From positions 1 to 38,567 of IMG/VR virus record IMGVR_UViG_2531839486_000019: DNA of 38,567 nucleotides; one strand, written 5' to 3'. Numbering within the stretch: the stretch's first letter is position 1; every line of letters begins with the position of its first letter. The notes below the pieces were generated by a model that ran no database searches, had not been told where the DNA came from, and saw nothing but the letters and a program-made list of their open reading frames with translations. Below, one piece after another: positions 1,266 through 17,786 of the stretch. Source of the stretch: a virus (taxonomy: Duplodnaviria; Heunggongvirae; Uroviricota; Caudoviricetes). A program made the translations under genes and the position numbers.

Positions 1266-1754
1266 TCAGTGCCCCATTTTCAGGGAGTCGTACTGCCGCT
1301 CGCATGTCAGTCCTGCAGAACGATATCGCTCAGCCTCTTCTGCTGCTGCGATGTAAGCTCGGTTGCTTTCTTCAAGCATGTCGGCGAGCACACCGATGAC
1401 CTTGCTGGCTGGCGTGCCAGCGGGGAAAGATCCGGTATAGTGTTCGGCGAGTCGCTTGGTTTTGTCAAGTTCGGCGCGCAGGCCGTCAGCAGCGGTATTA
1501 GCATGCTCAGCATCAACACGCGCCACATCGATACGGGATTGTGCTTCACGTTCAATTTGTGTTTTCTCCTGATCACGTTGTGCCCTGGCCTTATCATCAG
1601 CCTGTTTCTGATCTGCCTGTGCCTGCGCATACCCCGCATCGTACTGGCGGCTGCCGTGTACATTCCAGGCAACCACACCTCCGATGACAAGAGCAGCAAG
1701 CATCAACACGATAAGCAACTTTTTCCAGTACGCTTTGACGAGTGCCCAGATCAT
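1266..1754 (-). CDS. Rz-like inner-membrane spanin (i-spanin)
   Basis: ATG at 1752-1754 overlaps endolysin stop (1751-1753); N-terminal TM (LLIVLMLAALVIGGVVAW) then charged coiled coil; the track ORF extends further 5' as an artefact. Confidence 0.65.
   Translation of the reverse strand: MIWALVKAYWKKLLIVLMLAALVIGGVVAWNVHGSRQYDAGYAQAQADQKQADDKARAQRDQEKTQIEREAQSRIDVARVDAEHANTAADGLRAELDKTKRLAEHYTGSFPAGTPASKVIGVLADMLEESNRAYIAAAEEAERYRSAGLTCERQYDSLKMGH
1307..1528 (-). CDS. Rz1-like outer-membrane lipoprotein spanin (o-spanin), nested in the +1 frame of Rz
   Basis: internal ATG at 1526-1528; lipobox LLTAC followed by Pro-rich segment (PNLTKPSDSPNTIPDLSP); nested within the i-spanin gene. Confidence 0.45.
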   Translation of the reverse strand: MWRVLMLSMLIPLLTACAPNLTKPSDSPNTIPDLSPLARQPARSSVCSPTCLKKATELTSQQQKRLSDIVLQD

Positions 1755-2377
1755 AAAAGCACCTTGCTGGCGGTAATGTACCGCGCGCGACGGTCGTCGA
1801 TACCGTTCTGCCCACCATTGATGATCTGCGTGACGCGCACCAGGTCGCCGGTGTACTTCATGCAGCCTTTGGTTGCAAAGAACCACGCCGCGCTACGGGC
1901 CGCGTATTCGTCCTGCGCCAGCAGTTCCGGTTGTTTGACCAGATCCACCTTCAGGCCGTTGCCGCAGTCCCGGTAGTTGTTCAGGCCGGTGATCTGGATA
2001 AGCCCGCGCCCGCGGTAAAACCAGCCGTCGGTCGGCCCGTTATTCCCCATGCGTTTGCTGTACACCAGGTTGGCGATCGCACGCTGGCGTTCCAGTGGCA
2101 GTGACGGCTCACCAGCACGACGGCCCAGCGCGTTGGCCTGTCCCTGAGTGAGACGCCCGGCGCGGACGAATCCTGCCAGCCCGGTAACGCTGTAGTTAAA
2201 GTTCTCCTGAAGCCGGGTAAAGCCGCCTGACTCATGCCCCGCCTGCGCGATAAACATCGCCTGGTGCAGCGGCTGCTCAATACCAAACTCTTTCATAGCC
2301 GCGGTGATATGCAGATACCAGCGCGTGGCCAGTACGTCACTGATACCAGCGGCACGCTGGAATTGTTTAATGTCCAT
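1751..2377 (-). CDS. endolysin, glycoside hydrolase family 19 (chitinase-like lysozyme)
   Basis: FIAQAGHESGGF and GRGLIQITG motifs typical of GH19 phage endolysins; sits between holin-like and spanin genes. Confidence 0.85.
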   Translation of the reverse strand: MDIKQFQRAAGISDVLATRWYLHITAAMKEFGIEQPLHQAMFIAQAGHESGGFTRLQENFNYSVTGLAGFVRAGRLTQGQANALGRRAGEPSLPLERQRAIANLVYSKRMGNNGPTDGWFYRGRGLIQITGLNNYRDCGNGLKVDLVKQPELLAQDEYAARSAAWFFATKGCMKYTGDLVRVTQIINGGQNGIDDRRARYITASKVLL

Positions 2378-2660
2378 GCTGGGACCTCGTTATCTTGAAA
2401 ATTTGTACCACGTTCCCTTTTGTCTTGATGAGCGCAGCCAGGAACACGGCTTTGATGATGACTTCTGACCAGTCGGCGCTGACGTAGTAACCGTAGAAGG
2501 TTCGGATAGGTACGCTGGCGGCCACGACGATAAGCAGGTATGCGAGCCATCCACCCCACCAGCGATGGCGTGACCCGTCACGGCGGAACAGAAGCACTCG
2601 GATTGCAATGCCGCCGCAGATAGCGGCATTAAGGATGAGAAGAAGCTCAGGACTGGTCAT
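2367..2660 (-). CDS. holin-like small membrane protein
   Basis: 97 aa, 2-3 hydrophobic helices; ATG at 2658-2660; stop overlaps endolysin start by 11 nt. Confidence 0.55.
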   Translation of the reverse strand: MTSPELLLILNAAICGGIAIRVLLFRRDGSRHRWWGGWLAYLLIVVAASVPIRTFYGYYVSADWSEVIIKAVFLAALIKTKGNVVQIFKITRSQHGH

Positions 2661-3060
2661 CGTCTTTTCTCCCCGGGATCAGGTCGCGTGGATTTCCAGA
2701 ACGGTGATACAGCCAGGTACCGATACCAACAGCCACGATTGAAGAAACAAACGCCCCTGCTGAGTACGCTACCCCTTTCTCAAACATATCTGTGGTGATA
2801 CCAGGAAAAGCGGATGCAAAGCCGATGAGAAGTGTTGCTGTCGGTTTGTAGAAGAGAACTCCGCATAGGTAGCTGAGGAACGCCAGCAGTAACCGACGTT
2901 TAATCGGATACTCTACTGCTGAGGTAACAAAAATTACCGCACCAGCAAGCGAACCTAACGCCACCTCGGGAGGGACACCGACGACAACTGAAGCCATCGC
3001 ACCCAGACTAAGCCCCTGATTGAGTGACTCCGTTGTCAGCACATGTGCCATAGTGACCAC
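2647..3060 (-). CDS. membrane protein of the lysis cassette (second holin or antiholin candidate)
   Basis: 137 aa with several TM segments; stop overlaps next gene start by 14 nt; alternative start at Met4. Confidence 0.5.
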   Translation of the reverse strand: MVTMAHVLTTESLNQGLSLGAMASVVVGVPPEVALGSLAGAVIFVTSAVEYPIKRRLLLAFLSYLCGVLFYKPTATLLIGFASAFPGITTDMFEKGVAYSAGAFVSSIVAVGIGTWLYHRSGNPRDLIPGRKDDDQS

Positions 3061-3204: not shown

Positions 3205-4215
3205 ATGAACATGAAAACATTAAATGGATTAACTATTTTCAGGTTTGTAGCTGCGTTTTATGTATTTATATTTCACTGCAATATCAGATTCCCAGCAGAA
3301 ATTGGTGATTTTCTAAACAGAATTGTTAAGAATGGTGCAATTGGAATGACATTCTTTTTTGTTCTGTCTGGTTTTGTCATGGCATGGTCATCGCAAGGTG
3401 GGGTGAAGTCTGATTATTTTGCGCGTCGCTTAAGGAGAATTTACCCAGCGTATATTTTTATGGGATTGGTGAGTCTCCCATTTATTATTGATTTAAAGCC
3501 ACAGCAAATCGTTCCATCTTTATTAATGTTCATTACTGGAACTCAGGCATGGATACCTTCTTCATTTTCACTATGGAACTTCATTGGTTCGTGGTCGGTA
3601 TCGACTGAGCTATTTTTTTATGCAACGTTCCCTATCTTGTTCCCATTGATTAAGAAAAGACCAGGGGCCTTTCTTCTTTCATCATTGGCTGTAACTTCAC
3701 TGCTGGTTCCGTTCTCTATAATGCTTGGGAGCGGCTCACAGTTCCCTTTGTTCTATGTCAGCCCAATCCACCGGCTACCTGAGTTTATCATTGGCGTATG
3801 CGCTGGGGTTTACTTTACCAATGGGATAAGGTTATCGCGTCGCAATAGTGTTCTCCTTATTGCATTATCATTATTAACATTAACAGTAATATCAACAAGA
3901 ATGAATTCTGGGTTTATGACTATGAATTTATTCACAGTCCCAGCCACTGCCATACTCATTTTTTCTCTTGCATCTTTAAATGTGAGAGATGATGGATTAG
4001 CGGCGCTTCCCATATACTTTGGAAAAATTAGCTACTCTTTCTATTTGATGCAGATACCATTGATAATGTTTATCGAAAAATATCATTACCTGTTTAATGA
4101 TATGAATACGTTATCATGCTGGGTAGGCATGTTTATAGCTAACACAATAATGGCATGCATATCTTATCACTTCGTAGAAGAAGCCTTTATGAAAATGAAA
4201 TACCAATCCGCCTAA
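3205..4215 (+). CDS. acyltransferase family 3 membrane protein (OafA/Oac-like O-antigen acetyltransferase candidate); lysogenic-conversion cargo
   Basis: 336 aa multi-TM protein with N-terminal acyltransferase-3 signature (FRFVAAFYVFIFHC, FFVLSGFV); opposite strand to late genes; AT-rich; next to tailspike. Confidence 0.8.
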   Translation: MNMKTLNGLTIFRFVAAFYVFIFHCNIRFPAEIGDFLNRIVKNGAIGMTFFFVLSGFVMAWSSQGGVKSDYFARRLRRIYPAYIFMGLVSLPFIIDLKPQQIVPSLLMFITGTQAWIPSSFSLWNFIGSWSVSTELFFYATFPILFPLIKKRPGAFLLSSLAVTSLLVPFSIMLGSGSQFPLFYVSPIHRLPEFIIGVCAGVYFTNGIRLSRRNSVLLIALSLLTLTVISTRMNSGFMTMNLFTVPATAILIFSLASLNVRDDGLAALPIYFGKISYSFYLMQIPLIMFIEKYHYLFNDMNTLSCWVGMFIANTIMACISYHFVEEAFMKMKYQSA

Positions 4216-7513: not shown

Positions 7514-9988
7514 TTATTGCGGAGTGACATCCTGTGGTCGCCACCAGTATGTCTGGTTAAACTCTTTCTTCGAACGTTGCTCCATTTTACGCAAATAACC
7601 TGGTGAAAAATACTCCTGCATCTGGTTAAAGATCATGTGATCGAGAGCCGCCTTTAAGTACCAGAGATTCGCACCTGGCATCAGACCTTTCCCCAGCTTA
7701 ACCAGATCACCACCAGTCTGCTCATTCTTCCCTTCCACAGCATTTAACGGTATGCCCTGAGCAATCTTCACTACGTCATCAACCAGACCAGCTACCGGGC
7801 CAAGCATCGACGCCAGCGCGCCGCTTCCGTACCTAGTGTGATCTGACAATAAAAAGTCACCGTAAAGGCCAAGACCACCACCTTTCAGTAGAGCACCAAG
7901 CCAAAATTTAGCAGCATCTTCTCCTGTCATCTCGCGAGGATTACGACCAGACGCAAGGTCGTTAAGTTGCTGCGACAAAGCGCCAAGAATGGTCGTACTG
8001 GCAATAAACGTCGCAATATATGCCGCACGCCCACCAGCCGACGGCATACCCATAGCGCGTGACCAGTGACGCATAACCACCGAGATAGGGAACGATTTAA
8101 ACAGGAAAACACTTCTCGTTAATTCACCTTTCCATGTTCCACGCTGAATACCAGAACCGGTTATCAGTTGCTCACGTGCACCCGGTGTAATAACAGCCAT
8201 ATCAACTTCTTCAGTTACGGCACCGAGCAGTTTACGCATTGCCTCAAATTTCACGCGTTCAGGCTCACCAAGATGTTTAACTGCTGAATCATGGATACGC
8301 ATAATGCTTTCCGGTGTCAGCATCGTATTATTGCCGTTCCCCCAGTCCTCCTGTTGCGCCAGCTTCCATACGCTCCAGTCTGTGTCAGTAATCCCTTTGC
8401 TTTTCAGGATACGAAAATCAGAATCATCGAGGCTACGAAGGTCTGGTGTCCGTGACACTACTTCTCCCAGGCTTCCCATCATGGTTACGCCATAGGCGCG
8501 CTTGTGCGCATCTGACCATGCTGTAAGCCCACTGGCACGCATTACCGCCGTTGCAGCCCAACGAGACACAGACGGCCCCATATTATCCATCGCCCAGCGG
8601 TTAACGCTGCCAAGTAGAGATTCCATCGCCAGACCAGCGCGGCGCGCCCGCGCAAGTTCTGTACGGTTCGTTGGGTCCATAGCTTCAAGCTGGTTGCGGA
8701 ATAACTGGTTCATTGGAAGGTTGGTAACCTTCGCAGACAGATACATGGTTCCAAGATCAGAGAACGATGACAGCAACGCGGATCCGAGTCTGCTGGCAAC
8801 CAGCCAGTTGCGGATATTGTCAGACCATCGCGCGATGTGCGGATTCGCTACAGGCTGTGTCTTTCCGGAAATAAAGTTGTACAGATTCTCTGTGTTGTTC
8901 GCCAGCCGCTCGACTTTACCGGTTTTACTCGGGTTAGCTGTTGCCGTTTCTGCCTTCACCTGATCAAGAAGAGAGCGGAAAACATGATCGGGGTTTGGGC
9001 CATATGTTTCCACCAGTGCAATATCTTTACTGATACCTTCAAGGTGACCGACCATGATTTCCCATAGAGAGCGATCGCCATAAAGTTGCTGATATTGCAG
9101 ATAGGAATCTGCATCTTTGAAATGTATCTGTCGTGATGCATTACCACGGTTAGCACGTGCGCCGGAAATTCGCATTCCGGTATCAGTAAGCTTATTCAGC
9201 CCACCAGTAGCGATCGTGTTATAAGCCTCTCCAAGAAATGCAGACAACTCGGCATCGTTCATCAGTTGTCCATCGGCTCGGGGATAATATTTGCGATCCA
9301 GCTTACCTATAACATCGCTAACCCATTTATCTTTTGATACCGCCCCAACCTTTTCCATAGAATGATGTTGAGGGATCCCCCAGTTTTCGAGATAGCCAAT
9401 GTCCCCACCAGCATCATTAAACCGGCGGCGCAGCAGCTCTGTAACTTCTCTCCACGCCTTAGCACCTTTTCTTGCTTTAGCATTGCCAGTATTTTGCCCC
9501 CGCATTTCATATACCAGGTCACGTACGCCCGCTTCATCTTCAAACAGACCAAAAAAGCGAGGATCAACTGCTTCGAATGCCTCCTGCAATTGACTCAATG
9601 CATAATCACGGGTGGCTTTTGTTCTGGATTCAACAGAGAGGAAATTCGATTTACCGTCTGCATTAAAAGCAATAGTACGGTTAAGAGCGCCAAGTTTCCC
9701 ATCAGCCCCTTGATAGCTATTGATAAATTTATCCAATCTCTGACGTGCGGCTATAGTGAGGGCCACACGACGTTTCTTTAATGCCGCTTCTCGCTGTAAT
9801 CCTTCAGATGCCAATTGTGCTGCACGATATAGCCGCTCTGATTCGGAAAGTTGTCTCCACGACATCGGGTCATCACGAGCAATGGAGCGCATATTTCGAT
9901 AAATGCGGTCTTCAATGTTCTGTATTTCTCGCGCCGTTAACGTGCGCTGCGCCGCCTGCTGGACCGCTTGTATACATTCCTGTCTCAT
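7514..9988 (-). CDS. internal virion (ejection/core) protein, T7 gp16-like by position and size
   Basis: 824-aa ORF at the end of the structural operon just before the tailspike; synteny with T7-like internal core proteins. Confidence 0.65.
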   Translation of the reverse strand: MRQECIQAVQQAAQRTLTAREIQNIEDRIYRNMRSIARDDPMSWRQLSESERLYRAAQLASEGLQREAALKKRRVALTIAARQRLDKFINSYQGADGKLGALNRTIAFNADGKSNFLSVESRTKATRDYALSQLQEAFEAVDPRFFGLFEDEAGVRDLVYEMRGQNTGNAKARKGAKAWREVTELLRRRFNDAGGDIGYLENWGIPQHHSMEKVGAVSKDKWVSDVIGKLDRKYYPRADGQLMNDAELSAFLGEAYNTIATGGLNKLTDTGMRISGARANRGNASRQIHFKDADSYLQYQQLYGDRSLWEIMVGHLEGISKDIALVETYGPNPDHVFRSLLDQVKAETATANPSKTGKVERLANNTENLYNFISGKTQPVANPHIARWSDNIRNWLVASRLGSALLSSFSDLGTMYLSAKVTNLPMNQLFRNQLEAMDPTNRTELARARRAGLAMESLLGSVNRWAMDNMGPSVSRWAATAVMRASGLTAWSDAHKRAYGVTMMGSLGEVVSRTPDLRSLDDSDFRILKSKGITDTDWSVWKLAQQEDWGNGNNTMLTPESIMRIHDSAVKHLGEPERVKFEAMRKLLGAVTEEVDMAVITPGAREQLITGSGIQRGTWKGELTRSVFLFKSFPISVVMRHWSRAMGMPSAGGRAAYIATFIASTTILGALSQQLNDLASGRNPREMTGEDAAKFWLGALLKGGGLGLYGDFLLSDHTRYGSGALASMLGPVAGLVDDVVKIAQGIPLNAVEGKNEQTGGDLVKLGKGLMPGANLWYLKAALDHMIFNQMQEYFSPGYLRKMEQRSKKEFNQTYWWRPQDVTPQ

Positions 9989-9993
9989 TTAAT

Positions 9994-11796
9994 TTAACCT
10001 CTCAAGAAACACGCCACAGCGACATCAAACAGGCTGGAATCCTGTATTGCCTGCTCACTTTCCCTGTTCGCTTCATCCAGTACTTCACGCGCGCTGCGCG
10101 ATTGTGGATTACCATCATCATCCAGCACGGTGATTATCATGTCAGGTGATTCAAGCAGCGAGTCTTCAGCTATGCGCAGATCAATATCTCCTGCCTGATC
10201 CGCCATCATTTTTTGTTCTGCCTGTTGCAATATTTTATCAGGCTCAAAAGGAGCTACTTCGTCTGGCGTCCTGACCTCTGCTGTTTTATAGAATGAAACA
10301 GCCTGAGCATTAAGTTCACTTTCAGCCTGCTGTCTCCGTGCCAGTTCTGCTCGAGCTTCAAAAAACTGACCGCCAGGCTCATGCGGTGCCAACGCGTTAC
10401 GGGAAAATTCCAGGCGTTCTTGTGCCTGCCGGATTCGTTGGTCAATATCGCGAAGTCTGACCTGTTTATCTGATCGAGCACGAGACAAAGATTTACCGCT
10501 ACCGGTTGGCTCTTCTGCAAGAATTTGTGCGCGCTGTTCAGTGAGATTTTCAATAATTCGTTGGCTATTAGCGATTTCAGACTGGTAAACCTGTCTATCG
10601 CCACGCGGCAAAAGCTGCGCGGCCTGTTCTTCAAGCAACCGATTTTCTATAGCGCGCGCCGTTACTCCATCATCTACAGATGACAGAGCCTCATTAACTG
10701 CCTGAGACAGCAGACTCTTGCGCCCAGGAATTTCACTGAAAGATGCAGACTCAACAATGCTGGCAACGTCTACAGGTCTCCCCTGGCTAACATCAGACAT
10801 AGCTTTTCGCAGAGCCTGAATGTGAGAATTGCGCGAAAGCACGTTGATCGGCACGCCGGGCGCAATATCAATTTCAGCATGATGAGCGGCATTCGCCGCC
10901 AGTGCAGCATCAACATCAACTGGTGAAAAATTTGGTGCGCTTGTAGACTCGCCGCGAGAGTTAATAAATCTGCCGACACCACCAAACGCCACTCCAAGAA
11001 CAGCATCAATAGCAATTGCCTGTCGATCCAACACATCATACTGGTTAGCCATTTCGCTATAGCCACCATCACGAAGCGTTTTTGCAGTAAGCCCACGCTG
11101 TGCCATACCGAACGCAATATTTGTACCTGCGGCATAGGCAATATCTGGCGTTGCACGTACTGCTGTTGCTGCGGCGCGTCGCACTGAACTTTCACCCGTC
11201 CGCGGAAGCTGGGCCGCCACACCTTCCGCCAGCGCACCACCAGCACGTAACCCGAGGCTCATAGGGATCAGTGTTCCGGCACCAGCAGTAATACCCTGCA
11301 CTAATCCTGCTTCCTGCGCCGTCCTAAAATCAACACCCTGTGCTGTCAGCCGTTCAAACTCAGAAAAACCCTGTAGCGAAGTTACCGCCGCTGCACCTCC
11401 GACCGGACCACCGAGCGTTGTACCGACAACAGCCTGCCCGCCCATATCGAACAACCCATAAAGAACCTGCCCGGCGGTTCCAGTTGTCGCCGCATCAGGC
11501 GTCAGCCGCTTAACCTGCTGCTCTGCTAGTTTTCTCTGCTCGGCAATGTATGAAACTGAAGTGTCATTGAGCGAGGTGTTTTCGTTAACAAACTGAGCAA
11601 TCGGGGATACGATTTTATCCATCCCTGCCCATAGCAACTGATCTGGCTTTGCCACCAGCCCGGAGTACAAACCAGACAATGCCGCTCCTACAGCATTGTC
11701 GAAAAAACCAACATCGCTGTTAAAGCCCGCTGGATTTGATGCTGCTTCGTCAAGCTGCTGATTCTGGTTTACTGGATTAAGGCCAAAGTAACTCAT
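9994..11796 (-). CDS. internal virion protein
   Basis: 600-aa ORF; its start overlaps the upstream gene stop (ATGA); Ala/Gly-rich segments. Confidence 0.6.
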   Translation of the reverse strand: MSYFGLNPVNQNQQLDEAASNPAGFNSDVGFFDNAVGAALSGLYSGLVAKPDQLLWAGMDKIVSPIAQFVNENTSLNDTSVSYIAEQRKLAEQQVKRLTPDAATTGTAGQVLYGLFDMGGQAVVGTTLGGPVGGAAAVTSLQGFSEFERLTAQGVDFRTAQEAGLVQGITAGAGTLIPMSLGLRAGGALAEGVAAQLPRTGESSVRRAAATAVRATPDIAYAAGTNIAFGMAQRGLTAKTLRDGGYSEMANQYDVLDRQAIAIDAVLGVAFGGVGRFINSRGESTSAPNFSPVDVDAALAANAAHHAEIDIAPGVPINVLSRNSHIQALRKAMSDVSQGRPVDVASIVESASFSEIPGRKSLLSQAVNEALSSVDDGVTARAIENRLLEEQAAQLLPRGDRQVYQSEIANSQRIIENLTEQRAQILAEEPTGSGKSLSRARSDKQVRLRDIDQRIRQAQERLEFSRNALAPHEPGGQFFEARAELARRQQAESELNAQAVSFYKTAEVRTPDEVAPFEPDKILQQAEQKMMADQAGDIDLRIAEDSLLESPDMIITVLDDDGNPQSRSAREVLDEANRESEQAIQDSSLFDVAVACFLRG

Positions 11797-14306
11797 TGCG
11801 GAATATCTCCGGAGAATCTCTGACGCTTCTGAGTCAGATCAAGAACAACGGGAGAACCATCATCTTTCAGCAGATAACCAGTACCAAGTTTCACCAGGTA
11901 CTGACTATCGCCGTAACTTTGCAAACCATACTGACCAGGCGGTGTTTTTATCCCTGTGCCAACAACTTGTTCATTCCAAACCTGATTAACCTGCTTATCG
12001 AATTGCTCTGCAGACATTCCCCACGGCAAAAGAACATTCCCCATTCCGTTATAGTCATGCACGCCACCTGTAGCTACGTTAACAGCCTGTTTCCAGATAT
12101 CATTGTCAATTTCGCCTGATACCACGCCTTTTTTCGCCATCACACCAGCGTAATAGTCCTTTGCGATCTCGTATGCCATTGATGCCCCCTGAGCATCACC
12201 AGCAAATGCATCCTTCACCATGTCAGAAAACTCAAGGCGAAGATCAGCATCTTTAGGCATCGGAATACCTTTCGCGTCATCAGTACCCTTACGAGCCGCC
12301 GCACCAGCAAGAATTGTCTGCGCTGCGGTTTCAGGAGACACGGAAACATCAGGATTAAACCAGTTTTTTTCTGCCAAAATACCACCAGGCTTATCCATCA
12401 GTATCCCGGCAACGGCAGCAGATGGAGCGTTGGCACTGATCTGCTGTAGTGCTGACATATACACCTGCCCACCACCAGTGCTCTGCCTGATGGTATCGAG
12501 ATATGCTGCCTGTTGGGAAACTGGAGCATCACGAAAGAAAACACCGATCTGATTGGCCTCGTCTTTGGAAAAGAACGTCAGTGGAGTGCCATATGACTTA
12601 GCAAGATCACTGACCTGAGCGGCACGCAAGGCAACGCTCTGTCCAAAGTTATCCTTATTGCTCATGTCGATAGGCTTTGCCTGTCCGGAGGCAAGAGAGA
12701 ACTGCACAGGATCCGACTGCCGCTGCTTTATCACCTGATTTGCAGCCGAAACAACGTTGTCATAAAGAGCTGCGCGTGCCGCATACCCCTCCCCTGTCTC
12801 ACCAGTATCCGGGCGTAATTGCTCAACATATGCTGTAATGCTGCTTGTCGGCATGTTGCGGAAAGAGCCTATATACTGTCCGGCGATTTGCGTATTTCTG
12901 AACTCGGTATATCGCAGGTTTCCTTCTCTTACTCCATAAGCTGCAATAAAATCAGCCTCACCAGGTGGGTTAGGAAATTCAACGCCACGCATATACGCAG
13001 CTGTCGCATCGCGAACCTGGCTGTCAATCATCGTTTTATATTCAGCCTGCTGCTGCCGACGCAGTTGATCCGCCTGTCGCATAAAACTTGCCTGCGCCTC
13101 AGGAGATGCCGCATCGAATGCTGCATTACCGGTATAGCGTTTGGTGTTGGTTGGAATTGTTGATAAACCAAGTGCTGCACTGACACCAGCAGTTAACTGC
13201 TGATCACTGTATGGCTGGCTACCGTTCTCATGATGGATAATGGCTGCACAAAGCGCCTTCAGGGTATCAGGATTAGATGCATCGAGAGGCTCATCAGCAG
13301 AAACGCCAAGTTGTTCGCACACTGCTTTGATATACGACATAGTGTCATTTTTATCAGTAGGCGGTGCCCAGCGATTAATTATCTCGCTGACGGTATCAAT
13401 ACCCTGCATCTGATACGACATCAGGTTTCGCCCTAATGCACGAATCCCGTGTTCAGGTGTTTCGAATTTAGCAAATCGACCATCATCACCGGTCTGGCCT
13501 ACCCACGGATTAGTTTTGCTGTATTCGAGATTTCCTGGGTTATTGTTGCGTATGCCACGGGCACGCTCGGAAGAGTCACTATCTGCTACAGCACGGCGAG
13601 CTCCAGCAGCAGTATCACTTAACTCGCCATTACTTTGGATGAATGCGGTCGCATTGTTTGCCGACCACTGGGACAATGCGGCATCAGCAACCTTCTCTTT
13701 AAACTCGACTTTCTTGGCCTGGATTTGCTCGTCGCTCCAGCCATGCGCAATGCCGTAATCCTCAATTTGCTGGAAAGTTTGCTTATTAGCCAATACGTAT
13801 GCGGCGTTGTCGCCATACAATGCTGCGGCATTTTTACCATTGTTCAGCAGCGTAGCCTGAAACTGGCCTTCTTCGTAGGCGTTTATTTGCCCTATCTCGT
13901 GCCGCCCGGCCTGCGTAGTGAACTGAATGCGCTGCTGCTGCGCCTGCTGCATAAAAGTATTACGAGCCTGTTCATCCGGCAGCGACATAGCCAGTTGTTC
14001 GACCTGAGCATCAAACTGCTGCGTATACTCATGGCCTTTTCCAATAGCATTTTTCCCTTTCAGGTTAAGCAACCCTGTTTCAGGGTTATTCAGCAGATCG
14101 CTGCTTATCTGACTGAGGTTAAGAGATGCCTCCTGAGCCAGAGCGATATTGGCACGCTGTTTTGCCTGACCAAAAACATCAATAGTCTCTGCCCCTGCCC
14201 GAACAAAAGCATCACCAATACCTGGCTGAGAAAACGTCTGCAAGCCTGCTGACTGAACTCCACGGCTCTCAACCTGACGTCCGGATACTGTTGGTACGAC
14301 TGGCAT
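11793..14306 (-). CDS. internal virion protein, gp15-like, with a possible muralytic domain
   Basis: start moved to ATG 14304-14306 (MPVVPT...) with RBS GGAGG 7 nt upstream, overlapping the upstream stop (TAATG); motif GIRNNNPGNL. Confidence 0.65.
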   Translation of the reverse strand: MPVVPTVSGRQVESRGVQSAGLQTFSQPGIGDAFVRAGAETIDVFGQAKQRANIALAQEASLNLSQISSDLLNNPETGLLNLKGKNAIGKGHEYTQQFDAQVEQLAMSLPDEQARNTFMQQAQQQRIQFTTQAGRHEIGQINAYEEGQFQATLLNNGKNAAALYGDNAAYVLANKQTFQQIEDYGIAHGWSDEQIQAKKVEFKEKVADAALSQWSANNATAFIQSNGELSDTAAGARRAVADSDSSERARGIRNNNPGNLEYSKTNPWVGQTGDDGRFAKFETPEHGIRALGRNLMSYQMQGIDTVSEIINRWAPPTDKNDTMSYIKAVCEQLGVSADEPLDASNPDTLKALCAAIIHHENGSQPYSDQQLTAGVSAALGLSTIPTNTKRYTGNAAFDAASPEAQASFMRQADQLRRQQQAEYKTMIDSQVRDATAAYMRGVEFPNPPGEADFIAAYGVREGNLRYTEFRNTQIAGQYIGSFRNMPTSSITAYVEQLRPDTGETGEGYAARAALYDNVVSAANQVIKQRQSDPVQFSLASGQAKPIDMSNKDNFGQSVALRAAQVSDLAKSYGTPLTFFSKDEANQIGVFFRDAPVSQQAAYLDTIRQSTGGGQVYMSALQQISANAPSAAVAGILMDKPGGILAEKNWFNPDVSVSPETAAQTILAGAAARKGTDDAKGIPMPKDADLRLEFSDMVKDAFAGDAQGASMAYEIAKDYYAGVMAKKGVVSGEIDNDIWKQAVNVATGGVHDYNGMGNVLLPWGMSAEQFDKQVNQVWNEQVVGTGIKTPPGQYGLQSYGDSQYLVKLGTGYLLKDDGSPVVLDLTQKRQRFSGDIPQ

Positions 14307-14851
14307 TATAATCCTCCGGGTAATCTGGTTCCTGCTGCTGCCCCGATTGGCGCAGGAGTGCTTTGAGTAAACGGACTCCACGTCCCACCAAACATCTGGT
14401 ACGCACCGTATGCCTTCAGAGGCGCAGTGAGCAATGTTGTTGCTGCTCCCACATTCCCCTGTTTACGGGCTGAACTGGCTTCTGCTTTATAGTTGGCAGC
14501 CTGAACCTGATAACCGTAAGCCTCGCGTTGCGCGTTATTCACCGTCGTCAGCGAATCAAGAGCGCCAAACTGGGCAGTGTCGCCAAATATATCCAGCGCG
14601 TTACCTGTAGATAAATCAGCGCCGGTAGCCCCCATTGTCGCCGCTTGTGTACCAAGCCGCTGTCGGGTCTCTCTGCGCCGTTGCTCAGCTTCAGCGTTAC
14701 CTCTGTTTATTGCATCATTTGCCTGAGCAGTGGCTATATCTGCGTTCGCTTCTGCAACCTTCGAGGCATACTTTCCCTGTTGGTACTGGGTGTATGCCTG
14801 AATGCCACTCATGGCGAGCATTGCGCCACCAGCAATAACCGGATCGCACAT
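14306..14851 (-). CDS. small internal virion protein, gp14-like by synteny
   Basis: 181 aa; start and stop both overlap neighbouring genes (translational coupling). Confidence 0.55.
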   Translation of the reverse strand: MCDPVIAGGAMLAMSGIQAYTQYQQGKYASKVAEANADIATAQANDAINRGNAEAEQRRRETRQRLGTQAATMGATGADLSTGNALDIFGDTAQFGALDSLTTVNNAQREAYGYQVQAANYKAEASSARKQGNVGAATTLLTAPLKAYGAYQMFGGTWSPFTQSTPAPIGAAAGTRLPGGL

Positions 14852-15315
14852 TATTTTCTCTCCATGTGAAATCTGTGGAAATTAAGACCAAGAGCACCAT
14901 AAGGCGCGGCTTCTTCAAGCCTGAATCCAAGCCAGTGCAGCCATGCTTTGGCAACATGGTTTCGCTCGTCGACATAGTTTTCCAGGCGCGGATAAACTGC
15001 CAGCATCTGCTGCAATACAGGGCGGCAGTGGCGAAGAAATGTCTTCTGATATTTTTCGATACGGCTGGTTCCGACCAGCCAGGGCGTACCATTGCCACCG
15101 ATCATTGACGCCGGAGATACGCCAAACATGGTTACCAGTTCTCCGTTCGCGAACCCTGACCAGGCCATAGTCGCAGTGCGAAGACCAACACGCAGCGCAT
15201 CTTCGATAGTCATCAGCGATACCGCATACAGTTCGTCAATATCAGCCTGACGAACATCCGGCAAAATCATCTGAAGATGCTCTTCGGTGGCGGGAATAAT
15301 TCGAACATCGATCAT
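14851..15315 (-). CDS. virion protein, gp13-like by synteny
   Basis: 154 aa; overlapping start/stop with both neighbours. Confidence 0.55.
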   Translation of the reverse strand: MIDVRIIPATEEHLQMILPDVRQADIDELYAVSLMTIEDALRVGLRTATMAWSGFANGELVTMFGVSPASMIGGNGTPWLVGTSRIEKYQKTFLRHCRPVLQQMLAVYPRLENYVDERNHVAKAWLHWLGFRLEEAAPYGALGLNFHRFHMERK

Positions 15316-17786
15316 CAGAATCCCCCAACAGTAAGGCGAGGAATAACGGCAAGAACAGACAGCGGCAACGGGTCAAGCTGACGGATTCTTACACGTCCGT
15401 TTTTGCCCCAATTACTGTCCAGTTTCACTTCTACTTTTCCGGTAGCGTCATCAACAGGATCATCGTAGAACTCGAATTCACGCTGTGGATATTCGTACCA
15501 TTTACCGCCTGGCGTAGTCGCCCAGATGCCGCGGCTGGCATTCACAACCAGAGTAACGGATGGGATCACCTGTTTTTTGTCCAGCAGCGTTTCCTGTCCG
15601 TTAATGTTGATATCCAGTGTTTCGAATTCAGCAGTTATTGGCAGGCCGATGTGCACTACAGCCCCCGGTGATTCCAGCGTAACGGCACCTCCGGAAACTA
15701 CTTTCTGTGGTTCCACGTTCGCATCAGAGAGGATGTTTACGGTCTGTCCTTCAAGATGAGACAGGCCTCCAAATGTCCGGCGCGCCATCTGCCAGTTCGT
15801 GGTGGCCACATTCCTGAGGAATGGCGGGACGTTCCTGTTAGCACGAACCACTACAGCGGTATTGCTGGTTACAGAAATAATGTCGCAACGTAATTCTTTT
15901 GACACCTCATCGCCAGTATCAGGATCAGTTCCGGTATAAGGGAACTGTAGTTGCGCGCCGACATCACTACTGGTGAAGTACGCACCACCAGAAACACTGA
16001 TTGTATATTCCGCGCGGTAATCCCATTCGCCAGAACCACCAGTGATGATCATCGTTCTGTCAGACGTATTTCTTCCATCATAGCTAAGGCCAGAATCAAC
16101 AAAGAAAGCATCTTCATCGCTGGTAAATAAACGGCTGGACAGTCGCTCGATGTATCTCACTGTTTGCCCGTTAACGGTTCGGTTAACGACGAAATACACC
16201 GCATCTTCATTGCCTTCGCTGATACTGCATGTGCTTTCATATTTTCCGGTACTGGATTGTGGTGCCCATGCAAAAACCTGCTGATCACGCAAATAGGTCA
16301 TCACCAGTAATTTACCGTCATCACGGATGCAGAAGGCGCTGGAGTAAGGGACTATTGAGAAGCACCAGTCAACAATGCTGTGCTTCTGAAAAAGATGATT
16401 GGCAAGGATAGTAAGGTCGTTCCCCTGATAGCCGTCAACATCGAATGAGTAGGCCAGATCACGGACAACACTGCCTTTCTCCTGGACGAACAGAGCAATA
16501 TTCGCCACGGCAATTGGTGGGACATTGCTCGAGCCATTTGATCCCTGAGAGCTGAATGCAAATGATGATGGGGTAAGCACTTTGTTCTGGTCGCCAGTGA
16601 TGACGTACTCACCTCCGGAAGTCAGCGCCACCAGCGAACCAACATCAATCAGGTGACGGATCTCATTAACCTGACGCCCGGCATAGGTGTAGATAATTCT
16701 GTCGTCATCCTGCGTAGGATTGCTTTTGCCAAAATCCTTATAATCCCCAGTACGGCTGGCCCAGATAGTCTGAGGGAACGCAGTCGATGCGGCGAAGTAA
16801 AGACGTTGTTGATAATAAACAACAGTGCCAGGATAACCATTAACACTGTTCCAGGCATATTTAGCCCATTTATAGCTGGCATTATCCTCGCCAACGACCT
16901 GCGAAGGGATATAGGAAATCACCTCGGCAGTTGCAGTAGTTCCATTTGCAGCAGAGATACGGGCAATGCCAAAACCACTGTGCAGATACTCCCACTCAAT
17001 GCCGGTATCATCATCACCGGATCCGCCCCAGCCATCCCATGATGTGCCTTCTGTATGCGAAGGGCGCAAAGTGCCTGTTTTGCCTGCTGTAACGGCGCGA
17101 TAGTAGTTACTGTCTGCACGGCGAATATCGCCAATCGACGTACTCTTACTGGTTTCCCATACCGGCACAGAATCCACTGCAGGCTGTTCCAGATAGAACA
17201 ATTTGCCTACCTGCTCCGCGCCAAAAATTGAGGCGCTTGCCGTTAACGTAATTGTCCCGGTGCTGGCGCTGGCATAAACCGTCACTGACTCGTCAATATT
17301 GATATCTTCAAATGGCCCGTTCTTCGTTACCACATCAACCAGTTGCCAGTTGTCATGCGCATAGCGGCGCAACTCTTTCGGCGGGTATGCCGGATGAACC
17401 AGCGTAAGCACGTCTGCGCTTTGCGTGAATTTAATTCGGAACAGATCGGCTTCAGTATATGGCGTGGCAATTTCATAAATAACATTGCTGCTGTTCAGCA
17501 CCAACGCACCATCTTTGATAACGCGCATGTACTGGTGTCCGAACTCCAGAGCATAAGTCTGAACCGTCGAGAACTGGAACGGGATCAGGCGGCATTTCCG
17601 ATTTGGGTATTTGGCGGCACCGACAAAACGCGTACCAGGTCGATTCTCAACGCCGCCATACTGCCGCACGATAAAGTTATCGCACTTGCGCAATGCCACC
17701 TGGTACTTCGCCATGTCGATACGACCGTACAACGACGGTCCAATCTCACCACCGGCAAAGCTGGGCTGGATCCAACTGATAGCCAT
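15315..17786 (-). CDS. tail tubular protein B-like (T7 gp12-like nozzle protein)
   Basis: 823-aa ORF directly after a ~200-aa ORF, matching the T7 gp11/gp12 arrangement; size and position. Confidence 0.65.
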   Translation of the reverse strand: MAISWIQPSFAGGEIGPSLYGRIDMAKYQVALRKCDNFIVRQYGGVENRPGTRFVGAAKYPNRKCRLIPFQFSTVQTYALEFGHQYMRVIKDGALVLNSSNVIYEIATPYTEADLFRIKFTQSADVLTLVHPAYPPKELRRYAHDNWQLVDVVTKNGPFEDINIDESVTVYASASTGTITLTASASIFGAEQVGKLFYLEQPAVDSVPVWETSKSTSIGDIRRADSNYYRAVTAGKTGTLRPSHTEGTSWDGWGGSGDDDTGIEWEYLHSGFGIARISAANGTTATAEVISYIPSQVVGEDNASYKWAKYAWNSVNGYPGTVVYYQQRLYFAASTAFPQTIWASRTGDYKDFGKSNPTQDDDRIIYTYAGRQVNEIRHLIDVGSLVALTSGGEYVITGDQNKVLTPSSFAFSSQGSNGSSNVPPIAVANIALFVQEKGSVVRDLAYSFDVDGYQGNDLTILANHLFQKHSIVDWCFSIVPYSSAFCIRDDGKLLVMTYLRDQQVFAWAPQSSTGKYESTCSISEGNEDAVYFVVNRTVNGQTVRYIERLSSRLFTSDEDAFFVDSGLSYDGRNTSDRTMIITGGSGEWDYRAEYTISVSGGAYFTSSDVGAQLQFPYTGTDPDTGDEVSKELRCDIISVTSNTAVVVRANRNVPPFLRNVATTNWQMARRTFGGLSHLEGQTVNILSDANVEPQKVVSGGAVTLESPGAVVHIGLPITAEFETLDININGQETLLDKKQVIPSVTLVVNASRGIWATTPGGKWYEYPQREFEFYDDPVDDATGKVEVKLDSNWGKNGRVRIRQLDPLPLSVLAVIPRLTVGGF

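What the first reader, a model, noticed from the sequence alone, without database searches (positions are those of the whole stretch)
11793..14306. Internal virion protein with a possible cell-wall hydrolase motif
The gp15-like protein contains GIRNNNPGNLEYSKTNPWVGQ, which I recall as a signature of virion-associated muralytic domains in some phage structural proteins. Podoviruses usually carry a peptidoglycan-degrading activity among ejection proteins (T7 gp16 has a transglycosylase domain). I cannot confirm the family from memory.
Basis: inference. Interest (0 to 1): 0.35.

Follow-up and report, generated by a model that had tools for sequence, protein, structure and literature searches.

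The report
Cell-wall-cutting domain in phage injection protein
A large virion protein of this epsilon15-like E. coli phage carries an inserted cell-wall-degrading domain of the recently characterised Enc34 endolysin type, most likely used to open the host cell wall when the phage injects its DNA; this is real but an ordinary member of a known kind.

Summary
An 837-aa gene on the minus strand (14306→11793) contains GIRNNNPGNLEYSKTNPWVGQ at aa 251-271 (nt 13494-13556).

The window is 99% identical to phage phiv142-3 (Uetakevirus), and the protein is the orthologue of epsilon15 gp15. It sits in a T7-like order: nozzle, gp13, gp14, this gene, then two large proteins. A separate holin/GH19 endolysin/spanin cassette handles lysis. 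A Pseudomonas relative has the same scaffold without the domain, so it is an optional inserted module.

The family is Enc34-type, not the SLT fold of T7 gp16. Bond specificity and activity of this protein are untested. Verdict: new member of a known kind, low to moderate interest.

The parts
11793..14306 (-). Gene for the 837-aa virion protein in the gp15 position, orthologue of epsilon15 gp15. Its start overlaps the stop of the gp14-like gene (TAATG) and its stop overlaps the start of the next gene (ATGA).
13587..14306 (-). N-terminal region, aa 1-240. Long helices at aa ~33-227 with pLDDT ~75-85, followed by a disordered linker at aa 218-249. Aa 49-199 are conserved in the domain-less Pseudomonas homologue.
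13113..13562 (-). Enc34-type (PHA02564) peptidoglycan-hydrolase domain, aa 249-398.
13494..13556 (-). The reported motif GIRNNNPGNLEYSKTNPWVGQ, aa 251-271. It is the N-terminal family signature RGIRNNNPGN plus the conserved W268 and G270.
13368..13370 (-). W313 codon (in RWAPP), equivalent of Enc34 Trp79.
13332..13334 (-). Y325 codon, equivalent of Enc34 Tyr95.
13221..13232 (-). HENG motif, aa 359-362. E360 (nt 13227-13229) is the predicted catalytic glutamate, equivalent of Enc34 Glu131.
12702..13112 (-). Helical middle region, aa 399-535, 79% identical to epsilon15 gp15.
11796..12701 (-). Variable C-terminal region, aa 536-837. Only 22% identical to epsilon15 gp15, yet aa 466-824 are homologous to the Pseudomonas phage scaffold protein.
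14306..14851 (-). Upstream gene, a T7 gp14-family internal virion protein of 181 aa.
14851..15315 (-). gp13-like internal virion protein, 154 aa.
15315..17786 (-). Tail nozzle, the T7 gp12 equivalent, 823 aa.
9994..11796 (-). Downstream 600-aa protein in the epsilon15 gp16 position. It has Gly/Ala-rich hydrophobic stretches and no known domain.
7514..9988 (-). Downstream 824-aa virion structural protein in the epsilon15 gp17 position.
1266..3060 (-). Separate lysis cassette: two holin-family ORFs (2647-3060, 2367-2660), a GH19 endolysin (1751-2377) and an Rz-like spanin (1266-1886). This shows the domain in gp15 is not the phage's lysis enzyme.

Best explanation
The gene encodes the epsilon15-gp15-type virion protein of a phiV10/epsilon15-like temperate podovirus. 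A ~150-aa Enc34-type (PHA02564) peptidoglycan glycosidase domain is inserted between flexible linkers into its helical scaffold.

Proposed mechanism, all of it inferred. After adsorption the protein leaves the particle with the gp14-like and the two downstream large proteins and helps build the trans-envelope DNA conduit. In the periplasm its enzymatic domain cleaves glycan strands of the murein sacculus locally, with Glu360 as general acid and W313 and Y325 positioning the sugar. This widens the mesh so the conduit and DNA can pass. That is the job done by the SLT domain of gp16 in T7 and by a T4-lysozyme-type domain of gp35 in K1E. By analogy with its characterised relatives, the bond cut is most likely GlcNAc-beta-1,4-MurNAc (N-acetylglucosaminidase), but this is not established. 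Lysis at the end of infection is done by a separate GH19 endolysin.

Shown here: the motif, family membership, conserved catalytic residues, predicted fold, gene context, and modular presence or absence of the domain. Inferred: ejection, periplasmic site of action, bond specificity, and activity of this protein.
For: Sequence:
- aa 249-398 match 9vvp_L Gp29 residues 3-146 (E=2.6e-37) and the Enc34 catalytic domain 7q47 (E=5.4e-17).
- BLASTP to native Enc34 ORF39 gives E=9e-28.

Fold:
- The AF2 model of aa 240-400 has pLDDT 88.

Catalytic residues:
- Enc34 Glu131, Trp79 and Tyr95 map to E360, W313 and Y325.
- E360 is invariant in 155/155 domains, including 60 from proteins of at least 550 aa.

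Family activity:
- Enc34 ORF39ΔC lyses outer-membrane-permeabilised E. coli, P. aeruginosa and H. alvei (PMC8943055).
- M4LysΔTMD degrades purified peptidoglycan and releases GlcNAc (PMC7143992).

Context:
- The genes are translationally coupled in the order gp11-like, nozzle, gp13-like, gp14-family, this gene, 600 aa, 824 aa. This mirrors T7 genes 11-16.
- The protein is the orthologue of epsilon15 gp15 at 59% identity, 85% in the domain. RefSeq calls gp15 a head protein with an HHpred lytic-transglycosylase hit, and it is cited as part of the packaging/injection device (PMC12391199).
- The same domain sits at the N-terminus of the Kayfunavirus gp16 homologue, where T7 gp16 has its SLT domain.
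- A separate lysis cassette is present.
- The domain is modular. A Pseudomonas phage homologue aligns on both sides of it but lacks it.
Against: - No enzymatic assay exists for this protein or for epsilon15 gp15 in anything I could read.
- The catalytic role of the Glu in Enc34 was inferred by superposition, not by mutagenesis.
- Pfam and NCBIfam give no hit.
- Homology of the scaffold to T7 gp15 is not shown by sequence: BLASTP E=0.05 and hhalign probability 0.2%. It is only hinted at by Foldseek on a low-confidence model (E 0.012-0.12).
- Secondary literature assigns epsilon15 gp15 to the tail hub rather than the internal core, so the location in the particle is unsettled.
- A related phage manages without the domain, so it may be dispensable under many conditions.
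- M4Lys data also suggested endopeptidase activity, so specificity is uncertain.
Confidence: 0.78

Rival explanations
1. The domain is a lytic transglycosylase, like T7 gp16 and as many database records name it. It would cleave MurNAc-GlcNAc bonds with formation of 1,6-anhydroMurNAc rather than hydrolysing as a glucosaminidase.
For: - The epsilon15 gp15 RefSeq note cites an HHpred hit to SltB (4anr).
- Several phage records and NCBI fragments call homologues 'peptidoglycan transglycosylase' or 'Lytic transglycosylase, catalytic'.
- The Enc34 paper finds distant structural kinship to GH23 enzymes as well as GH73.
Against: - There is no Pfam SLT hit, while the T7 gp16 control scores E=7e-31.
- M4Lys digestion products lacked GlcNAc, which points to glucosaminidase activity.
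- The closest structural relative named by the Enc34 authors is a GH73 glucosaminidase.
Confidence: 0.15
2. The protein is an external tail-hub or tube component rather than an internal core/ejection protein. The enzyme would be presented at the tail tip and act from outside once the outer membrane is breached.
For: A 2025 paper, citing Guichard 2013, lists the epsilon15 injection device as portal, tailspike, hub and core, 'corresponding to gp4, gp20, gp15 and gp17/16'.
Against: - The phage encodes T7-type tail tubular A and nozzle proteins that would form the hub.
- The gene follows a T7 gp14-family gene in the ejection-protein position.
- After 7q47, the best structural matches of the full-length model are three T7 gp15 entries, though weak.
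- RefSeq labels gp15 'head protein'.
Confidence: 0.15
3. The domain is a degenerate or non-catalytic module that only binds peptidoglycan, for example to anchor the conduit, or is purely structural.
For: - No activity data exist for this protein.
- A related phage lacks the domain entirely.
- Soaking experiments in the Enc34 study never showed bound sugar.
Against: - All family-invariant residues are kept, including the proposed catalytic Glu. It is present in 155/155 domains, among them all 60 domains from proteins of at least 550 aa.
- The domain is the best conserved part of the protein between the window and epsilon15, at 85% against 22% for the C-terminus.
Confidence: 0.07
4. It is the phage's endolysin, or a second one, acting from within at the end of infection.
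For: - PHROG families sharing the domain are labelled 'endolysin'.
- In Enc34, chi-like and some Pseudomonas phages the domain is the true endolysin.
Against: - The window has a complete holin/GH19 endolysin/spanin cassette elsewhere, and the epsilon15 orthologue of that endolysin has been characterised.
- This gene lies in the structural operon.
- The 837-aa protein has no hydrophobic or signal segment.
Confidence: 0.03

Closest known systems
Catalytic domain of Hafnia phage Enc34 endolysin ORF39 (PDB 7Q47) and Salmonella phage BSPM4 M4Lys; CDD family PHA02564
   Different: Those are 240-aa lysis-cassette endolysins with a C-terminal transmembrane domain. Here the domain is embedded at aa 249-398 of an 837-aa soluble virion protein in the structural operon, and the phage has a different (GH19) endolysin.
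Salmonella phage epsilon15 gp15 (NP_848223)
   Same: Orthologue with the same length class (842 aa), the same gene position and 59% identity overall, 85% in the enzymatic domain.
   Different: The C-terminal 300 aa are only 22% identical, so the tail is mosaic. RefSeq flags gp15 only through an HHpred lytic-transglycosylase hit, not as Enc34-type.
Kayfunavirus (K1F-like, T7 relatives) internal virion protein D / Gp29 of PDB 9VVP
   Same: Same enzymatic domain, ~55% identical (E=2.6e-37), in an ejection/core protein of a podovirus. The entry also contains the T7 gp15 homologue Gp28.
   Different: There the domain is at the extreme N-terminus of the 1295-aa gp16 homologue. Here it is internal to the protein in the gp15 position.
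T7 gp16 N-terminal SLT domain and K1E gp35 C-terminal phage-lysozyme domain
   Same: Same role expected: a muralytic module carried by an ejection protein. A published review notes that the module can move between gp16 and gp15 homologues (PMC8954989).
   Different: Different folds and families: Pfam SLT in T7 gp16 and Pfam Phage_lysozyme in K1E gp35. Neither is detected here.
Pseudomonas phage vB_Pae_HB2107-3I 678-aa protein (UVD41337)
   Same: Homologous scaffold on both sides of the domain (E=4e-11 and 4e-35) and the same gene order after a T7_gp14-family gene.
   Different: It lacks the enzymatic domain. No copy exists anywhere in that genome.

Membership tests
Enc34-type / PHA02564 peptidoglycan hydrolase domain | Significant sequence similarity over the whole catalytic domain to an experimentally characterised member | tested here: met
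   phmmer E=5.4e-17 to 7q47_A. BLASTP E=9e-28 and 37% identity to native Enc34 ORF39.
Enc34-type / PHA02564 peptidoglycan hydrolase domain | Family signature motifs (RGIRNNNPGN at the start; RWAPP; HENG) | tested here: met
   All are present. The motif residues are invariant or nearly so in 50- and 155-sequence alignments.
Enc34-type / PHA02564 peptidoglycan hydrolase domain | Proposed catalytic Glu131 plus Trp79 and Tyr95 | tested here: met
   They map to E360, W313 and Y325. The paper's numbering is uniformly one less than the native ORF. E is 155/155, W 142/155 (the rest Y), and Y 151/155.
Enc34-type / PHA02564 peptidoglycan hydrolase domain | Distinctive mainly helical fold resembling the alpha-lobe of lysozyme | tested here: met
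Enc34-type / PHA02564 peptidoglycan hydrolase domain | Peptidoglycan-degrading activity | not testable with these tools
   Shown for Enc34 ORF39ΔC and M4LysΔTMD only (PMC8943055, PMC7143992).
T7 gp15-type periplasmic-tunnel ejection protein | Gene immediately downstream of a gp14-family gene within the order tail tubular A, nozzle, gp13, gp14, gp15, gp16 | tested here: met
T7 gp15-type periplasmic-tunnel ejection protein | Detectable sequence homology to T7 gp15 | tested here: not met
   BLASTP best E=0.05 over aa 75-184. hhalign of a shallow profile gives probability 0.2%. No PDB gp15 hit by phmmer.
T7 gp15-type periplasmic-tunnel ejection protein | Structural similarity to solved gp15 | tested here: inconclusive
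   The full-length model is poor (pLDDT 62.7, pTM 0.30). Even so, ranks 3-5 of 350,542 chains are T7 gp15 entries 7k5c_A, 9jyy_G and 6yt5_A, with E 0.012-0.12, probability 0.35-0.66 and TM below 0.2.
T7 gp15-type periplasmic-tunnel ejection protein | Packaged in the virion and ejected into the cell envelope | not testable with these tools
   Only indirect support. Epsilon15 gp15 is annotated as a head protein and cited as part of the injection device.
GH23 SLT lytic transglycosylase (as in T7 gp16) | Pfam SLT domain (PF01464) | tested here: not met
   No hit at E<=0.1. The T7 gp16 N-terminus control gives E=7.4e-31.
GH24 phage lysozyme (as in K1E gp35) | Pfam Phage_lysozyme domain (PF00959) | tested here: not met
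   No hit. The K1E gp35 control gives E=3.9e-10.
GH73 N-acetylglucosaminidases | Fold-level similarity with the catalytic Glu superposed | tested here: inconclusive
Canonical lysis-cassette endolysin | Encoded with holin and spanin genes; small soluble or SAR/TMD protein | tested here: not met
   The gene is in the structural operon. The lysis cassette with a GH19 endolysin lies at 1266-3060.

The most novel reading that the evidence does not exclude
The scaffold is a true but very diverged homologue of the T7 gp15 periplasmic-tunnel protein. In epsilon15-like phages the glycosidase has been spliced into the middle of the tunnel subunit itself. The assembled conduit would then carry a ring of six to nine enzyme domains at a fixed height facing the murein layer. 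This would be an optional add-on: present in enterobacterial members, extended by a further 98-aa module of unknown function in most E. coli prophage copies, and absent in a Pseudomonas relative. It could tune host range or growth-phase dependence of infection.
Probability: 0.3. Interest if true: 0.4.

Novelty: new member of a known kind. Interest (0 to 1): 0.25.

Why it matters
The result gives a specific, testable annotation to a protein left as 'hypothetical' in the matching phage record and in thousands of E. coli prophage copies: an Enc34-type muralytic domain with catalytic Glu360.

It adds a third fold and a third position to the set of cell-wall-cutting modules carried by podovirus injection proteins. 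T7 gp16 has SLT at its N-terminus, K1E gp35 has a T4-type lysozyme at its C-terminus, and here an Enc34-type domain sits mid-chain in gp15.

It also shows that a family of about 19,000 protein clusters still has no Pfam or NCBIfam model, which explains why routine annotation misses it. The naturally domain-less Pseudomonas homologue offers a ready comparison for asking when such an enzyme is needed for infection. None of this changes current understanding of phage entry.

Tried and rejected
- Pfam and NCBIfam scans of the protein found nothing. This reflects the missing family model and is not evidence against the claim.
- BLASTP and hhalign against T7 gp15 found no usable signal. BLASTP against K1E gp35 found none either.
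- PDB sequence searches of the gp14-like protein and the two downstream large proteins gave only noise.
- The full-length AlphaFold model was low confidence (pLDDT 62.7), so its T7 gp15 matches are treated only as a hint.
- Full-length and N-terminal homologue searches returned almost only near-identical enterobacterial prophage copies or fragments. They could not deepen the alignment of the scaffold.
- Papers describing PDB 9VVP and 8CK1 were not found.
- The primary epsilon15 papers (Jiang 2006, Chang 2010, Guichard 2013) are not held. Virion location therefore rests on secondary statements.
- The 98-aa insertion seen in the 935-aa prophage variants has no Pfam or PDB match.
- I considered and rejected the idea that this is the phage's lysis endolysin, because a separate cassette exists.
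- I also rejected the SLT or T4-lysozyme domain reading. Controls were positive and the query negative.


Full report
**Observation.** The coordinates 11793-14306 delimit an ORF on the minus strand. Translating the plus strand gives only stop-ridden sequence. The gene starts at ATG 14306, seven bases after GGAGG, and encodes 837 aa. An in-frame upstream GTG at 14381 would overlap the preceding gene and is not used in the matching GenBank record. The string GIRNNNPGNLEYSKTNPWVGQ occurs once, at aa 251-271, which is nt 13494-13556 on the minus strand.

**Identity of the window.** The protein is 99% identical to Orf15 ('hypothetical protein') of Escherichia phage phiv142-3, genus Uetakevirus. It is 59% identical over its full length to gp15 of Salmonella phage epsilon15. 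Identity by region is as follows:

| Region (aa) | Identity to epsilon15 gp15 |
|---|---|
| 1-240 | 77% |
| 249-398 | 85% |
| 399-535 | 79% |
| 536-837 | 22% |

Near-identical copies are very common in E. coli prophages; one 837-aa cluster alone has 4,311 member sequences.

**What the motif belongs to.**
- Pfam and NCBIfam find nothing in the protein.
- PHROGs places the whole protein in phrog_992. It also shows that aa ~245-395 are shared with families labelled endolysin, tail injection transglycosylase and tape measure.
- A sequence search of the PDB gives two strong hits confined to aa 249-398. One is 9vvp_L 'Gp29' residues 3-146 (E=2.6e-37). The other is 7q47_A, the catalytic domain of the phage Enc34 endolysin (E=5.4e-17).
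- BLASTP to the native Enc34 ORF39 gives 37% identity and E=9e-28.
- An AlphaFold2 model of aa 240-400, built on 50 homologues, has mean pLDDT 88 and pTM 0.81.
- Foldseek against the PDB returns only 7q47 as significant (E=2e-10, TM 0.72; next E=0.59).

**What is known about that family.**
- Cernooka et al. (PMC8943055) showed that the PHA02564 domain of Enc34 ORF39 lyses outer-membrane-permeabilised E. coli, P. aeruginosa and H. alvei.
- By superposition on GH73 and GH23 enzymes they proposed Glu131 as catalytic, with Trp79 and Tyr95 in support. They concluded the family are probably beta-N-acetylglucosaminidases.
- Neither the original structure paper nor the 2024 follow-up I checked reports mutagenesis.
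- Bai et al. (PMC7143992) showed that the same domain of M4Lys degrades purified peptidoglycan and releases GlcNAc, with possible endopeptidase products as well.
- CDD's name for the family is 'V virion protein'.
- A non-tailed vibriophage, NO16, has a virion-detected protein with the same predicted fold (PMC13552765).

**Catalytic residues here.** Enc34 Glu131, Trp79 and Tyr95 align with E360 (in HHENGS), W313 (in RWAPP) and Y325. In the native ORF the Enc34 residues are numbered 132, 80 and 96, a uniform offset of one from the paper. A profile search of 1.84 billion representative proteins found 18,967 clusters at E<=1e-3 and 3,538 at E<=1e-30. In the top 150 representatives, which hold 155 domains, the conservation is as follows:

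| Residue | Conservation |
|---|---|
| E360 | 155/155 |
| N256, N259 | 155/155 each |
| W313 | 142 W, 13 Y |
| Y325 | 151/155 |

The values are the same in the 60 domains that sit in proteins of at least 550 aa.

**Architectures in the family.** The 150 best representatives divide as follows:
- 66 are stand-alone proteins of at most 260 aa. Several have an N-terminal hydrophobic anchor like SAR endolysins.
- 17 carry the domain at the N-terminus of a larger protein.
- 46 carry it internally.
- 21 carry it at the C-terminus.
- 12 share the layout seen here: 700-1000 aa with the domain starting at about aa 235-270.
- Two carry tandem copies, four in P0279.

**Genomic context.** On the minus strand, with overlapping stop and start codons (TGATG, TAATG, ATGA), lie these genes in order:
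- a gp11-like protein;
- an 823-aa tail nozzle (E=1e-216 to PDB 8ck1 'Tail Nozzle');
- a gp13-like protein;
- a 181-aa protein that passes Pfam's T7_gp14 threshold (31.2 bits against 27);
- this gene;
- a 600-aa protein and then an 824-aa protein.

This reproduces the T7 order 11-12-13-14-15-16. The protein has no hydrophobic segment. Elsewhere in the window is a complete lysis cassette with two holin-family ORFs, a GH19 endolysin and an Rz-like spanin. The epsilon15 orthologue of that endolysin has been studied as LysSA05. The Enc34-type domain is therefore not the enzyme of lysis from within.

**Is the scaffold a T7 gp15 homologue?**
- Sequence methods say no or cannot tell: BLASTP E=0.05 over aa 75-184 and hhalign probability 0.2% with a shallow profile.
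- The full-length AF2 model is poor (pLDDT 62.7, pTM 0.30). It predicts long helices at aa 33-227, a disordered linker at 218-249, the enzymatic domain, more helices at 402-530 and a low-confidence C-terminus.
- After 7q47, however, the next three Foldseek hits among 350,542 chains are all T7 gp15 entries: 7k5c_A, 9jyy_G and 6yt5_A (E 0.012-0.12, probability 0.35-0.66).
- I treat this as a hint only. I file the protein as 'in the gp15 position', not as a proven gp15 family member.

**Comparisons that bear on function.**
- PDB 9vvp contains Gp28, a clear T7 gp15 homologue (E=3e-211, eight chains), and Gp29 (four chains). Gp29's N-terminal fragment is 98-99% identical to the 'internal virion protein D / DNA ejectosome component' of Kayfunavirus phages. 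So in those T7 relatives the Enc34-type domain occupies the N-terminus of the gp16 homologue, where T7 gp16 has its SLT domain (Pfam SLT E=7e-31).
- K1E gp35, in the gp15 position, carries a Pfam Phage_lysozyme domain at aa 776-910.
- A review already notes that the hydrolase module moves between gp16 and gp15 homologues (PMC8954989).
- The temperate Pseudomonas phage vB_Pae_HB2107-3I has the same gene order: nozzle, a small gene, a T7_gp14-family gene, then proteins of 678, 640 and 847 aa.
- Its 678-aa protein aligns colinearly with aa 49-199 (E=4e-11) and aa 466-824 (E=4e-35) of the window protein. It is about 160 residues shorter in between.
- The domain profile finds no copy anywhere in that genome in six frames, against exactly one each in the window and in epsilon15.
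- The enzymatic domain is thus a self-contained module inserted into a conserved scaffold.

**Mechanism proposed.** Shown here are membership of a peptidoglycan-hydrolase family with intact active-site residues, location in the structural/ejection gene block, and modularity. The rest is inferred from T7 and from the literature on epsilon15. [quoted passage not shown] On that basis the protein leaves the particle at infection and its domain locally cleaves murein glycan strands so that the conduit can cross the wall. Bond specificity is most likely N-acetylglucosaminidase but is unproven. The lytic-transglycosylase labels in databases are not supported by any SLT signature. Whether the protein resides in the internal core or the tail hub before infection is unsettled.

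**Novelty and score.** Virion-borne muralytic modules in podovirus ejection proteins are textbook knowledge. This domain family was characterised in 2020-2022, and RefSeq already hints at a cell-wall enzyme in epsilon15 gp15. What is added is the correct family assignment, the predicted catalytic residues, the mid-chain insertion in the gp15-position protein and the natural domain-less relative. This is a new member of a known kind. The interest score is 0.25.

Noticed in passing
Not in the window; proteins P0121-P0240 (e.g. P0128), insertion between window aa 248 and 249 (nt ~13562/13563): Most E. coli prophage copies of this protein are 935 aa. They equal the window protein plus a 98-aa insertion (KSTKGMVVQGNINLFNRPSV...HEQQDQYYVKGG) exactly in the linker before the enzymatic domain. 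The insert has no Pfam or PDB sequence match.
   Followed up: partly
L006:5083-7119 (+) and whole genome L007 (Pseudomonas phage vB_Pae_HB2107-3I): An epsilon15-like gene cluster whose gp15-position protein (678 aa) matches both flanks of the window protein but lacks the muralytic domain. No copy of the domain exists anywhere in that genome. The nozzle gene there is annotated 'portal protein' although it hits Pfam Phage_nozzle.
   Followed up: yes
Proteins P0279 (762 aa) and P0280 (1259 aa): Representatives carrying four and two tandem copies of the Enc34-type domain in one polypeptide.
   Followed up: no
window 13113-13562 (-) and family-wide: The domain family has about 19,000 clusters at 50% identity, yet no Pfam-A or NCBIfam model matches. 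All precomputed Pfam fields of the homologues are empty. Routine annotation therefore calls these proteins hypothetical or mislabels them 'lytic transglycosylase'.
   Followed up: partly
window 11796-12701 (-), aa 536-837: The C-terminal 300 aa are only 22% identical to epsilon15 gp15, while the rest is 77-85% identical. This mosaic tail may co-vary with the downstream 600-aa and 824-aa proteins.
   Followed up: no
window 3205-4215 (+): An ORF with a strong Pfam Acyl_transf_3 hit (E=1e-27) lies beside the tail-fibre gene, on the opposite strand. It is a candidate O-antigen acetyltransferase for lysogenic serotype conversion. The Pseudomonas relative also has an acyltransferase next to its tail fibre gene.
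   Followed up: no
window 15315-17786 (-): The 823-aa tail protein matches PDB 8ck1 'Tail Nozzle' at E=1e-216, so a close relative's nozzle structure is solved. I found no paper for that entry.
   Followed up: partly
Literature: PMC8954989, Table 1: The review's row for 'Epsilon 15' lists gp11 (229 aa), gp12 (499 aa) and gp13 as the gp14/15/16 homologues. These do not match the epsilon15 genome, where by CDS length gp11 is 201 aa, gp12 is 825 aa, and gp14, gp15 and gp16 are 180, 842 and 634 aa. The row seems to describe a P22-like phage. Its statement that epsilon15 has 'small' gp15 and gp16 should be treated with caution.
   Followed up: partly
window 9994-11796 (-) and 7514-9988 (-): The two large downstream proteins (600 and 824 aa, together about the size of T7 gp16) have no Pfam, NCBIfam or PDB sequence match. 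The 600-aa protein has Gly/Ala-rich hydrophobic stretches, with a hydropathy peak at aa ~260-280.
   Followed up: partly
window 14851-15315 (-): The gp13-like protein gives only a sub-threshold Pfam Phage_T7_Gp13 hit (E=0.089). RefSeq's note on its epsilon15 orthologue cites a GNAT acetyltransferase fold.
   Followed up: no
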